The position numbers and the translations under genes were made by a program. DNA of 64,000 bases from Eledone cirrhosa (taxonomy: Eukaryota), in the NCBI GenBank assembly GCA_964016885.1, contig OZ024745.1, positions 56,730,001 to 56,794,000 of the forward strand. The letters are read 5' to 3'. The notes under the pieces were generated by a model. It saw only the letters and a program-made list of their open reading frames with translations. It did no database searches and was not told the origin of the DNA. Shown in pieces: positions 14,797 to 61,847 of this stretch (the stretch's first letter is position 1; each line of letters opens with the position of its first letter).

Positions 14797-15291
14797 GACG
14801 GAAAAAGTATGTTGACAGTAGCCGCGACAAGGAATCGAACTTCACGTATCTTAAATAACTGCTAATTTACCCCTGATGCCATCTTACCGTCTAAATTAAG
14901 AGGCTGATATAGATATAGTTGCAGAAGAGTGTTGTTTACCTTAGTTGTTAATTTGTAACTTCCTGATGATAAGCAGGTCCTAGCGAAACAAAGCACTACA
15001 CGCCAGTAGCTTATCCTACGTAGCTGATAATGAGTGACAGAGTATTCATTTATATATATAAATGAATACTCTGTCACTCATTATCAGCTACGTAAGATAA
15101 GCTACTGAGGACCTGCTTATCATCAGGAAGTTACAAAGTAACAACTAAGGTAAACAACACTCTTCTGCAACTACATCTATATCAGCCTCTTAATTTAGAC
15201 GGTAAGATGACATCAGGGGTAAATTAGCAGGTATTCAAGATACGTGAAGTTCGATTCCCTGTCGCGGCTGCTGTCAACATACTTTTCCGTC
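14797..15291. repeat. ~250-bp-arm palindrome centred on a (TA)n run (15047-15064)
   Basis: Arms are nearly identical with no spacer; the right arm lacks ~22 bp (14982-15003). Confidence 0.9.
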
Positions 15292-26436: not shown

Positions 26437-26732
<296 letters not shown>

Positions 26733-26883
26733 ATATATATATATATATATATATGTAGAAGTTCTATTTATATTGTTGGGATACAACAAGTAAATATTTT
26801 TATAACTGAATATTATAACAAATTATTGGAGTAAAAATACGATATATTAACAAATGGAAACTATATTTATAAAACCATATTTA

Positions 26884-26944
26884 TTTCATTATACATATTT
26901 CAAGAACACCATGTTAAATTATGGTGTGCTTTCATCAGATAAAA
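26884..26944 (-). ncRNA. Type-I hammerhead ribozyme, intact core
   Basis: TTTTAT-CTGATGA-AAGCACACCAT..ATGGTGTTCTT-GAAA-TATGTA-TA-ATGAAA. Confidence 0.8.
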
Positions 26945-27172
26945 TATAATATACATCAGTTTTATAAAGAATGCGACCATTTCTGTTGGAAGCTCCCGGA
27001 TAGTGGGGTTATCAAATTTATTTATTCTATTATGCAAATTATATATCCGACACTAATTTGCAAAATAGAATAAATAAATTTAATAACCCCACTATCCAGG
27101 AGCTTCCAACAGAAATGGTCGCATTCTTTAAGTGTATGTCAATATTTATTTATAAAACTGATCTATATTATA

Positions 27173-27233
27173 TTTTATCTGATGAAAGCACACCATAATT
27201 TAATTTGGTGTCCTTGAAATATGTATAATGAAA
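27173..27233 (+). ncRNA. Type-I hammerhead ribozyme, intact core
   Basis: Stem I TTTTAT/ATGAAA, CTGATGA 27179-27185, stem II 27186-27215, GAAA 27216-27219, short palindrome-like stem III, predicted cleavage after 27227. Confidence 0.8.
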
Positions 27234-27276
27234 CAAATATGGTTTTATAAATATAGTTTCCATTTGTTAATATATC

Positions 27277-27324
<48 letters not shown>

Positions 27325-27965: not shown

Positions 27966-28039
<74 letters not shown>

Positions 28040-28044
<5 letters not shown>

Positions 28045-28230
28045 AGTAAGTAAGACCCCGACGGCTGAGCTCAAGCTGTTTCGACGGCTAATTCACAGAA
28101 TTAGCCGTCGAAACGGCTTGAGCTCAGCCGTCGGGGTCTTACTTACTCCTATTACCCACTCTACTACCCTAAGTATTGAGTACTTTGGTGCGTTATGGTC
28201 CATCTGGTTCCTTACCACTTTTCCCTCGCT
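28040..28230 (+). mobile_element. Fold-back mini-element, family 2 (IR 28040-28152, tail to 28230), carrying the 3' half of a hammerhead
   Basis: Central hairpin GACGGCTAATTC-ACA-GAATTAGCCGTC, then GAAA-CGGCT..AGCCG-TC; (TA)n both sides. Confidence 0.88.
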
Positions 28231-28924
28231 ATATATATATATATATATTTTTTTTTTTGTTTTTTTTGTTTTTAGAATCCATATTCAATAAACAAACCAG
28301 GATTTTTCATTCTGAGGATTGAAAGCAAAACCTTTTGCTTTTAAGAAACCACTGGTAAATGGAATAAATGCCTTATGTTGTTTATTACATAATGAATATA
28401 TATATATATATATATATTGTGGTAAAAGACCGAGAGATTATTATATCCGTTAGTTAGAGTACTCAGTCCAGAGGACGAGTTCGATATTCACCGTAATCAT
28501 ACATGGGTTGAAAAACCGCTCAGTGAAACACGCGTCCTCGAGTATGTCTTGTTAATTTGTTGTGGAACTAACTTTCTCTCTCTTTATATATATACCTAAA
28601 TATCTAACTCTCGGTTTTCTGCTTTTAAATTTGTCTGCATGTGTCAAATCAAATCTACGCATTTAAGCATATTCACTTATGTATTTATTTTCAGAGAAGA
28701 ACAAGTATAACAATGAGAAAGCAGGAATCTCTAAAGCAGCGCTAAGATGAATAGATACATAGGTAGAACAAAATCACCGTAATTTTGTGGATATATTATT
28801 CATATTTGATAATGATTAAAGAAAGTGTAGAATTATTGTAACTTTTTAAATTATAATTTAATGAGATAATGAGAATTGTCGCAGCAACAAACGGGAGAAT
28901 ATCAAGAAATTGTTTTATTAACTT

Positions 28925-39070: not shown

Positions 39071-39074
<4 letters not shown>

Positions 39075-39170
39075 AGAAATAGCCGTCGAGGCGGCTTGAG
39101 CTCTGCCGTCGGGGTCATACGTTTTCCTATTTCCCACTCTACTACCCTAAGTATTGAGTACTCTGGTGCG
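39071..39170 (+). mobile_element. Family 2 single arm (second single arm at 40114-40167)
   Basis: AGCCGTCGA..CGGCTTGAGCTC.GCCGTCGGGGTC...CTACCCTAAGTATTGAGTAC. Confidence 0.75.
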
Positions 39171-40082: not shown

Positions 40083-40163
40083 TATATATATATATATAAC
40101 GAATTATATAACTGAATTAGCCGTCGAAACGGCTTGAGCTTAGCCGTCGGGGTCTTACTGGTT

Positions 40164-40204
<41 letters not shown>

Positions 40205-40393
40205 ATACGTGATAGATTGCCTTCCGGATATAGCCCTCCGGATCGTACCAAGTCCAGTGATGGTCTGGAACCTCCCGGGGAGACCGTTCAGCCTAGGAAA
40301 GCCCTACCAAGGACAATGCTCCAGTCAGTAACACTCTCTCGGATTTAAGGAACCACCGGACCATCTCGTTACGAAAAGACCACACCCAATAGG

Positions 40394-40443
<50 letters not shown>

Positions 40444-60418: not shown

Positions 60419-61847
60419 CAGCGAGATAGATAGATAGATAGGTAGTTAGATTGATTGATAGATAGTTACGGGGATAGCTGGATAGTTAGAAAACATTCTT
60501 GGTAATTTATAACTCAATAATTCATAAATTTTAATAAAAATACTGAAGTAAGTTATTGTAATTGATTTAAATTAATATAAAACGAAATGTGGTTATGACC
60601 AGAGTTAATTGTTTCTAGTTGATCTTCTTCGAATATAGCTACATTGATAAACAAAGGTACATAGATAACTAAAGCTTGATAGGAGATAGACAGAGAGACA
60701 TATGGAGAGCTAGAGAGTTAAATACATAGATAGGGAATCAGCAATCTATGTAGGTCGGTATCTATACAGATATGCTGTTAGGTATATAGAAAGGTAGATA
60801 GATATATAGAACGTCAGATAGGTTGGGAGGTACGTAGTTATGTAGGTAGGCCGATAGAGATGTATTCAGACAGTCTCAGTAGCTAGGTAGGCAGATAGAT
60901 GTTTAGTCAGGAAACAGAGAAATTAGCTGATTCTTTAAGATATAATGTAAAGACTATGTATTGTCGTGAATTTTGAGGCTTCAGTTATGTTTTGATACAA
61001 TGTGAGAATATAATACAATATTTTCTTAGCATGTGTAGCAATTATATGTGTTGCTAGAAGACTCTGCGTTTTTAATTTTATATAGAATAGTAATTCCTGA
61101 TTATCGAAGAAATGCTAGGTTGTTGCGAATTATCTAGATTGAAATAGGTCACGAATACTCTAGTAAATCATACATTGCTGGCATTTTATATATGATCAAT
61201 GAGAAGTGAGAGTGTTCGAGATTTAGGAGTTTGTTTTAGAATTCCGCAAGAACAATATAATATGTAAGAGAATGAAATACATGAGTATTTCACTTGATAA
61301 TGTCGTTGACCTTCTTGGGTTACTAAATATTTGGCTAGTATGTTGTAGAGAAAAAGAAATTGAAGAATGTTTGTTATAGCTCAATTTGAAAGTGAAGAAT
61401 GAATATAATTTCACTACTGCTCTCCTAGCTGTTTTATATAGATCAGAGTGAAGTTTATATTGCCGGATATATTTAATTGTTAGTGTTGAAATAATTGGTA
61501 GCAGCTAAGTTATAGCCGAATGTCGGCTCTGGTCCTGACGAGTCAGACTTGAAACATATTTTAGACGTCGTCAGTCAACAGCGCAGCAAACGCTTTTGTA
61601 GATATAGAGAAGTGATATTTTGTGAGCAAGTTGTGAGCAAGTTTACTGATTGTGAAGAAAATCGCAATTTGGGACACTCCCTTGGAGTACATAAGTTAAG
61701 TATTAATAAGATTAATTAAAAGGCTTTTAAAGTAGCGATTATATAAACATTCTCAGGTAAATTTATAAGTATATAAAATATAGTTGTTATATTTCAGGAA
61801 ATTACAGAAATGAAGATCATCTTTCAAAGTATTTAACAACCACATGC

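What the first reader, a model, noticed from the sequence alone, without database searches (positions are those of the whole stretch)
28040..28230. Fold-back turn sits exactly in hammerhead stem II, replacing the CUGANGA half
Seen: the central hairpin GACGGCTAATTC/GAATTAGCCGTC is followed by GAAA, a 6-bp stem III (ACGGCT/AGCCGT) and a GUC triplet (28130-28132). This is the 3' half of a hammerhead. Where CUGANGA and the 5' strand of stem I should be, there is instead the mirror image of that 3' half. The same turn is used at 26661-26691, and single arms at 39071 and 40114 begin in the same loop. Inference: RT copies through stem II, the nascent cDNA folds on it and primes on itself, so the ribozyme hairpin itself is the snap-back signal. 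It predicts a parent reading GACCCC-CTGANGA-GACGGCTAA.
Basis: partly seen in the sequence, partly recalled or inferred. Interest (0 to 1): 0.8.

Follow-up and report, generated by a model that had tools for sequence, protein, structure and literature searches.

The report
Palindromic stubs of a Penelope retrotransposon
This 190-base mirror-image insert is one of about 14,000 stubs of a Penelope-like retrotransposon, likely made when reverse transcriptase starts near the front of the element's RNA and runs off its end, and the stub ends likely record both a transcription start inside the hammerhead ribozyme's loop and the ribozyme's own cut site.

Summary
The palindrome and the hammerhead 3' half are real. 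The parent is a Hydra-clade Penelope-like element (3,542-bp unit). Its complete type I hammerhead has a U3:A8 core, not CUGANGA (4,804 copies). The central hairpin is a product of mirroring; the true stem II has a 37-39 nt loop. Stem-II snap-back is refuted: 0 predicted products against 13,928 short-turn palindromes. Arms instead stop at two sharp walls. Wall 1 is an initiator-like TYAGT in loop II and carries an extra G (82 G to 18 A), the mark of a copied cap. Wall 2 is exactly the predicted GUC cut (about 2-4% of arms). Each arm can hold bases the other lacks, so two cDNAs are likely started at the two 'tail' sites, run off the RNA 5' end and are joined head to head. None of 55 ORF-spanning copies stops at either wall, which points to a template without a 5' end, possibly a ribozyme-made circle. 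All RNA-level steps are inferred from DNA copies; no RNA data were available.

The parts
28010..28042 (.). (TA)n target, left side
   Evidence: sequence; 57 of 64 stubs have TA repeats on both sides
28040..28094 (-). short arm: element positions +61 to +7 (+1 = A of TTAGTCC in loop II, L065:2849)
28095..28235 (+). tail arm: element positions +4 to about +144
28095..28101 (+). remnant of hammerhead loop II, just 3' of the inferred transcription start
   Evidence: matches parent loop II
28102..28109 (+). 3' strand of hammerhead stem II
   Evidence: fold of parent
28110..28132 (+). GAA, stem III with palindromic GAGCTC in its loop, and C17; predicted cut between 28132 and 28133
   Evidence: wall at this bond
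28133..28137 (+). 3' strand of stem I (pairs with ACCCC of the parent)
28150..28152 (+). TAT, proximal end site (+59 to +61); inferred first RT start site
   Evidence: fixed end of short arms
28153..28235 (+). about 83-nt 'tail' up to the distal end site; in full elements it runs on into the 5' UTR and ORF
26538..26670 (-). second stub, tail arm, reaches only +9
26673..26734 (+). second stub, short arm, reaches -1 (further 5' than its tail arm)
39071..39170 (+). single tail arm starting at +2, joined directly to (TA)n
40114..40168 (+). single short arm starting at +7

Best explanation
The insert is a head-to-head stub of a Hydra-clade Penelope-like retrotransposon, likely formed when the element's protein cuts a (TA)n site, likely primes one cDNA from each strand at two start sites only about 60 and 140 nt from the RNA's 5' end, and the two run-off cDNAs are then likely joined. 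The usual 5' end is probably a capped polymerase II start at an initiator-like TYAGT inside hammerhead loop II, so this RNA carries only the 3' half of the ribozyme. A minority of RNAs are cut by the complete hammerhead at GUC and give shorter stubs that begin at +42. Shown from DNA: the parent, the two walls, the extra G, the two fixed 3' ends, and arms that cannot be copies of each other. Inferred: the promoter, the cap, cleavage in vivo, two-strand priming and end joining.
For: Wall 1: in 64 stubs the longer arm ends at +2 or +1 in 36 and never beyond -4. Of 99 tail arms anchored at +36, 63 end between +11 and -4, 4 between -5 and -40, 9 read through and 23 end earlier. Arms with no mirror partner end there too. 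Cap mark: the base before +1 is G in 82 and A in 18 of the first 100 of 561 matches (hand count). In 30 fetched loci only 4 of 21 G are templated by the mirror arm, and two insertions carry the G on both arms. Wall 2: 751 matches start at +42, against 37 at +39 and 58 at +46. Of 30 fetched, 22 are true starts, and in 10 of these both arms end at the cut. At this uncapped wall a single extra base is A or T in 6 of 7, against G in 7 of 9 at wall 1 (p = 0.04). Two cDNAs: the tail arm reaches further 5' in 26 of 64, the short arm in 23, level in 15. Three stubs join a +42 tail arm to a short arm that reaches +2 to +4. The anole element cuts and extends both strands from two internal start sites that bound the tail (PMC11167929).
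Against: No RNA evidence for either end. The two arms share a subtype in 44 of 46 stubs against 26% expected at random, which a single self-copied cDNA also predicts. A loop-less palindrome with G on both arms could also come from a hairpin. About a fifth of arms reach -1 to -4 (18 of 99), so the start is not one base. The commonest end is +2, not +1. The TATA-like stretch near -29 varies between subtypes. The cap test is restricted to arms with C at -2 and to the first 100 rows. 41 of the first 100 '+42' rows are an extra G in the G run, not starts (hand count). The samples come mainly from the first contigs.
Confidence: 0.75

Rival explanations
1. One reading: RT copies through stem II and the cDNA primes on that hairpin.
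For: The parent's 5' strand of stem II is close to the predicted sequence. Self-priming has been proposed for palindromic PLE junctions (PMC3846280).
Against: The product must keep loop II and has 0 matches. None of 64 stubs reaches beyond -4, while the 5' strand of stem II lies near -28 to -36. A second family in the window forms palindromes with whole hammerheads in both arms.
Confidence: 0.02
2. Same RNA 5' ends, but one cDNA: the tail-primed cDNA runs off, folds back or jumps onto itself, and is copied to the short end.
For: Arms share a subtype in 44 of 46. The commonest junction could use a 4-bp ATTC/GAAT pairing. Perfect loop-less palindromes exist.
Against: In 23 of 64 stubs the short arm holds 5' bases that the tail arm lacks. 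Mixed +42 and +2 to +4 stubs exist. Two stubs have arms of different subtypes. Later deletion at the palindrome centre could explain some of the first group but hardly ends exactly at +42.
Confidence: 0.13
3. Wall 1 is not a transcription start but a splice acceptor (the sequence reads TTTTCATYAG), a nuclease cut, or a stall at a small hairpin in loop II.
For: The -1 base varies only between T and C, which fits YAG as well as TYAGT. A weak hairpin covers -4 to +5 in some subtypes.
Against: No constant upstream exon or leader precedes the wall. Ends keep the AG and often TTT. The hairpin is -0.9 to -5.0 kcal/mol and not shared by all subtypes. ORF-spanning cDNAs pass the site in 52 of 52 cases that reach it, so sequence or local fold does not stop RT. 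None of these explains the extra G.
Confidence: 0.07
4. Assembly artefact from fold-back long reads, or a DNA-transposon-like miniature element.
For: Fold-back chimeras occur in long reads (recalled). The stubs look like short inverted-repeat elements.
Against: Arms are asymmetric, have unique flanks and differ by point changes. A contig from an independent public run holds the same fold-back (X5, record 19). The turn differs from copy to copy, so the palindrome is remade at each insertion.
Confidence: 0.03

Closest known systems
Hydra clade of Penelope-like elements (Craig et al. 2021, PMC8557442)
   Same: C-terminal GIY-YIG, DKT, CxCX5C linker, CxxC and CxH motifs, no CCHH pair, (TA)n targets, hammerhead in the pLTR, inverted 5'-truncated arm, tail on one end.
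   Different: RWR instead of RWK; unit 3,542 bp (Hydra generally under 3 kb); tail about 83 nt (30-40 bp typical); U3:A8 core; thousands of fixed-length palindromic stubs are not mentioned in the passages read.
Poseidon element of the green anole (Frangieh et al. 2024, PMC11167929)
   Same: Two internal RT start sites bound the tail; both target strands are cut and extended; AT-rich target; hammerhead in the pLTR.
   Different: They saw no RNA-seq reads ending at the hammerhead cut and no need for cleavage in vitro. Here genomic copies pile up at the cut. In the parts read they do not address inverted stubs or the transcription start.
PLE hammerheads with U3-A8 core and the circular-template proposal (Cervera and de la Pena 2014, PMC4209133)
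   Same: Type I ribozyme, U3-A8 covariation, short helix I, palindromic loop 3; circles proposed to explain tandems.
   Different: They state that in vivo evidence was lacking. Here helix III is 6 bp, loop II is 37-39 nt and appears to hold the promoter start.
Drosophila virilis Penelope internal promoter (Schostak et al. 2008, PMC2377424)
   Same: Start site with an initiator inside the pLTR.
   Different: There the hammerhead lies downstream of an intron that follows the start (PMC4209133); here the start splits the ribozyme.
L1 twin priming and cap-derived G (Kojima 2010, PMC2912911); retroviral strong-stop DNA (recalled)
   Same: Two primers from one target; extra G from a copied cap; run-off at the RNA 5' end after a short stretch.
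   Different: L1 inversions copy different parts of the RNA; here both arms copy the same 5' stretch. No tRNA primer, and no sign of efficient strand transfer from the cap.
Non-LTR retrozymes (PMC7229834; bioRxiv 10.64898/2026.07.22.740005)
   Same: Short, pLTR-related, hammerhead-linked, high copy.
   Different: Retrozymes are head-to-tail tandems with whole ribozymes; these stubs are head-to-head and hold only the 3' half.

Membership tests
Penelope-like elements (EN+) | single ORF with RT and C-terminal GIY-YIG | tested here: met
   719-aa ORF in L065 with FDIESYY, YRDDG and VIY...YIG read by eye; atlas neighbours at 0.96-0.99 include GIY-YIG and RVT_1 clusters; Pfam scan and PDB search gave nothing
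Penelope-like elements (EN+) | pLTR or tandem structure, inverted 5' arm, tail on one end | tested here: met
Hydra clade | DKT, CxCX5C linker, CxxC and CxH around E and N, no CCHH | tested here: met
   read from the translation against the description
Hydra clade | RWK motif | tested here: inconclusive
   RWR at the matching place
Hydra clade | (TA)n insertion | tested here: met
   57 of 64 stubs on both sides
Hydra clade | RT phylogeny with named Hydra families | not tested
   no reference sequences were brought in
Neptune clade | CX2-5CxxC linker and CCHH motif | tested here: not met
   linker is CxCX5C; one Cys in the GIY-YIG core
Type I hammerhead (parent) | stems I, II, III around the core with a GUC cut triplet | tested here: met
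   minimum-energy fold has this topology, though z = -0.66 against shuffles; no Rfam hammerhead match
Type I hammerhead (parent) | canonical CUGANGA box | tested here: not met
   of 51 copies: UUGA(N)AA 35, CUGAGAA 14, other 2; U3-A8 is a reported variant
Type I hammerhead (parent) | self-cleavage after C17 | not testable with these tools
   indirect only: excess of 5' ends at +42
Type I hammerhead (the stub itself) | both halves of the core | tested here: not met
   5' half absent
Non-LTR retrozymes | head-to-tail tandem units each with a whole hammerhead | tested here: not met
   head-to-head, half ribozyme

The most novel reading that the evidence does not exclude
The genome preserves three RNA templates of one Penelope-like element. 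Capped mRNA that starts inside loop II gives only dead-end strong-stop palindromes. Hammerhead-cut linear RNA gives shorter stubs. Unit-length RNA cut at both ends and closed into a circle is the only productive template and yields the pLTRs, partial tandems and arrays. The ribozyme would then be the switch from mRNA to transposition template, and since the start site opens loop II, the mRNA's 3' end could supply the missing half to cut its own 5' end.
Probability: 0.4. Interest if true: 0.87.

Novelty: new variant of a known kind. Interest (0 to 1): 0.72.

Why it matters
What hammerheads do in Penelope-like elements, why insertions carry inverted arms and how pLTRs are regenerated are called open in the papers read (PMC8557442, PMC4209133, PMC2377424, PMC11167929). 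Here thousands of copies give base-level maps of the RNA 5' ends. That yields indirect in vivo evidence that a U3:A8 PLE hammerhead cuts, a promoter start placed inside a ribozyme loop, a simple origin for inverted arms, and a sharp test of the circular-template idea. It also accounts for at least 14,000 small hairpin-forming inserts in this genome. Copy ends could be read the same way in any PLE-rich genome.

Tried and rejected
Rfam found no hammerhead in the window or the parents; Pfam and PDB found nothing for the ORF. No RNA holder was listed; the four runs laid are contigs of unknown kind and cannot show starts. I first filed the parent under Neptune and dropped that after the motif comparison. 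End-to-end jumps from wall 1 onto a ribozyme-cut 3' end: only 10 matches, about 4 near-exact, so rare; a homology-guided transfer would leave no mark. A ligation scar at the cut in read-through copies: none seen, 0 of 72 longer than normal. Retrovirus-like strand transfer from the cap was considered and disfavoured because a second pass should stop at the cap, and 0 of 55 ORF-spanning copies do. A cut-site wall in the second family could not be judged: too few truncated copies. The palindrome check was one base out of register and was redone. The degenerate matching gave false '-8' ends from mirror sequence and was replaced by matching to real parents. Earlier findings: none returned.

Full report
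Numbering. +1 is the A of TTAGTCC in loop II of the parent ribozyme (L065:2849). In the window +11 is 28102, +41 is 28132 and +61 is 28152.

1. Observation. The insert lies in a (TA)n tract. Arms 28040-28094 and 28098-28152 match at 54 of 55 bases, and the right arm runs on for about 83 bases. The genome (G000, 3.0 Gb) holds 39,226 exact copies of a 17-base core and 13,928 head-to-head pairs with 0-30 bases between them. A contig from an independent run shows the same fold-back, so it is not an assembly artefact.

2. Parent. Non-mirrored copies lead to a Penelope-like element with a 719-aa ORF and a 3,542-bp unit in tandem arrays. The protein has DKT, CxCX5C, CxxC and CxH and lacks the CCHH pair, which matches the Hydra clade as described in PMC8557442; RWK reads RWR, and no tree was built. 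It folds as a type I hammerhead (the energy is not unusual, z = -0.66). There are 4,804 exact matches. Position 7 takes all four bases among 51 copies, and 14 of 51 have C3 opposite A8. U3-A8 is a reported PLE variant (PMC4209133). CUGANGA gave 38 hits; none of the 30 fetched is a hammerhead with that core.

3. Stem-II snap-back fails. A cDNA that primes on stem II must have copied loop II, so the product would read mirror arm, whole loop, 3' strand. That pattern has 0 matches.

4. Wall 1. In 64 stubs with one tail arm and one short arm, the longer arm ends at +2 (21) or +1 (15), 12 reach -1 to -4, 16 end earlier, and none passes -4 (part of this set was chosen by a gap of at most 30 bases). 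In 99 of the first 100 tail arms anchored at +36, with no condition upstream, 63 end at +11 to -4, 23 earlier (several of these are mis-calls at mutated bases), 4 at -5 to -40 (one is a diverged read-through copy) and 9 read through. Arms joined to (TA)n or other DNA end at the same place. The site is TYAGT, nearly invariant in 26 loop variants; calling it an initiator rests on recalled consensus and on the internal Penelope promoter of PMC2377424. With C at -2, the base before +1 is G in 82 and A in 18 of the first 100 of 561 matches (hand count), although CpG decay works against G. In the 30 fetched, 4 of 21 G are templated by the mirror arm, 7 are single extra bases (2 for A), and two insertions carry the G on both arms. 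An extra G from a copied cap is described for L1 and SVA (PMC2912911).

5. Wall 2. Tail arms that start at +42 give 751 matches, against 37 at +39, 58 at +46 and 22,421 that read through. 41 of the first 100 rows are an extra G in the G run. Of 30 fetched, 22 are true starts: 10 with both arms ending at the cut, 3 with the partner reaching +2 to +4, 5 on (TA)n, 4 other. After allowing for the artefact and for pattern acceptance the excess is roughly 8-fold and the class is about 2-4% of tail arms (my estimate). A single extra base here is A or T in 6 of 7, unlike wall 1 (p = 0.04, small numbers). It also shows that stub ends mark RNA 5' ends.

6. Two cDNAs. Short arms end at +59 to +61 and tail arms near +144, both at TAT next to (TA)n. 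In the anole element these two ends are the two RT start sites, and both target strands are extended (PMC11167929). A self-copy of the tail arm cannot hold bases that the tail arm lacks, yet the short arm reaches at least 2 bases further in 23 of 64 stubs, the tail arm in 26; the window's second stub is such a case. Mixed +42 and +2 to +4 stubs and two stubs with arms of different subtypes point the same way. Against this, arms share a subtype in 44 of 46, so both templates usually come from one source.

7. Long copies. I examined 86 of 331 places where the tail runs on toward the ORF (90 fetched, 4 dropped as the same insertion or array). Of 55 that extend past +1500, none starts at wall 1 or at the cut; 52 continue upstream and 3 start at +49 to +89. 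Of 31 short ones, 9 start at wall 1 and 7 at the cut. In 20 of the 31 the piece is followed directly by a second piece that starts at wall 1 (14) or the cut (6): RT ran off a 5' end and jumped to a point further 3'. So the capped and cut RNAs extend into the ORF side, as mRNA would, but do not yield full copies. The most economical template for long copies has no 5' end, such as a unit-length circle, as proposed without in vivo evidence in PMC4209133. Uncut RNA from far-upstream promoters is the untested alternative. Whether the stubs are themselves transcribed and recopied is also open.

8. Literature. Inverted arms, tails, PLE hammerheads and pLTR promoters are known; palindromic junctions were read as self-priming (PMC3846280). 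Eight searches listed no paper whose title or opening abstract describes run-off stubs, a start site inside a hammerhead loop, or genomic copies ending at a PLE ribozyme cut; the library lacks most subscription papers and Repbase. Seen: PMC11167929 parts 1-2 of 4; PMC4209133 parts 1-2 of 4; PMC8557442 passages, section 11 and two supplement searches (a Hydra family from an octopus is listed; not compared); PMC2377424 abstract and passages; PMC3846280, PMC2912911 and PMC7229834 passages; bioRxiv 10.64898/2026.07.22.740005 part 1 of 5, its supplements not seen.

9. Verdict. New variant of a known kind; interest 0.72, because it turns open questions on PLE ribozymes and inverted arms into exact predictions.

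Noticed in passing
window 26836-27285: A second palindromic (TA)n insert of another family, with a canonical CUGAUGA hammerhead whole in both arms; many relatives in the loci held, whose arms mostly end 45-110 bases upstream of the ribozyme core.
   Followed up: partly
L021, L100, L241, L259, L267: T runs of 7-18 bases abut position -3, as if RT slipped on the UUU at the RNA 5' end and added poly(A) to the cDNA.
   Followed up: partly
L164-L192 and L314-L373: Jump landing points cluster at +184 to +358, around the start codon at +232; two land exactly at +232.
   Followed up: partly
L165:1380-2040: Tandem of 257-bp units (-3 to +254) ending in a tail arm: repeated jumps from wall 1 to one point.
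   Followed up: partly
L068:388-1176: Three short arms starting at +2, separated by (TA)n-like tracts, in a local tandem.
   Followed up: no
window 14963-15000 and 61535-61560: CUGANGA followed by a short hairpin and GAAAC, possibly minimal hammerheads of other Penelope-like families.
   Followed up: no
window 40200-40400: A G+C-richer stretch of about 190 bases between (TA)n tracts, probably another microsatellite-targeted insert.
   Followed up: no
L003, L067 and related copies: A subtype with C3 opposite A8 (14 of 51 parents) that is predicted to cut poorly yet is common.
   Followed up: partly
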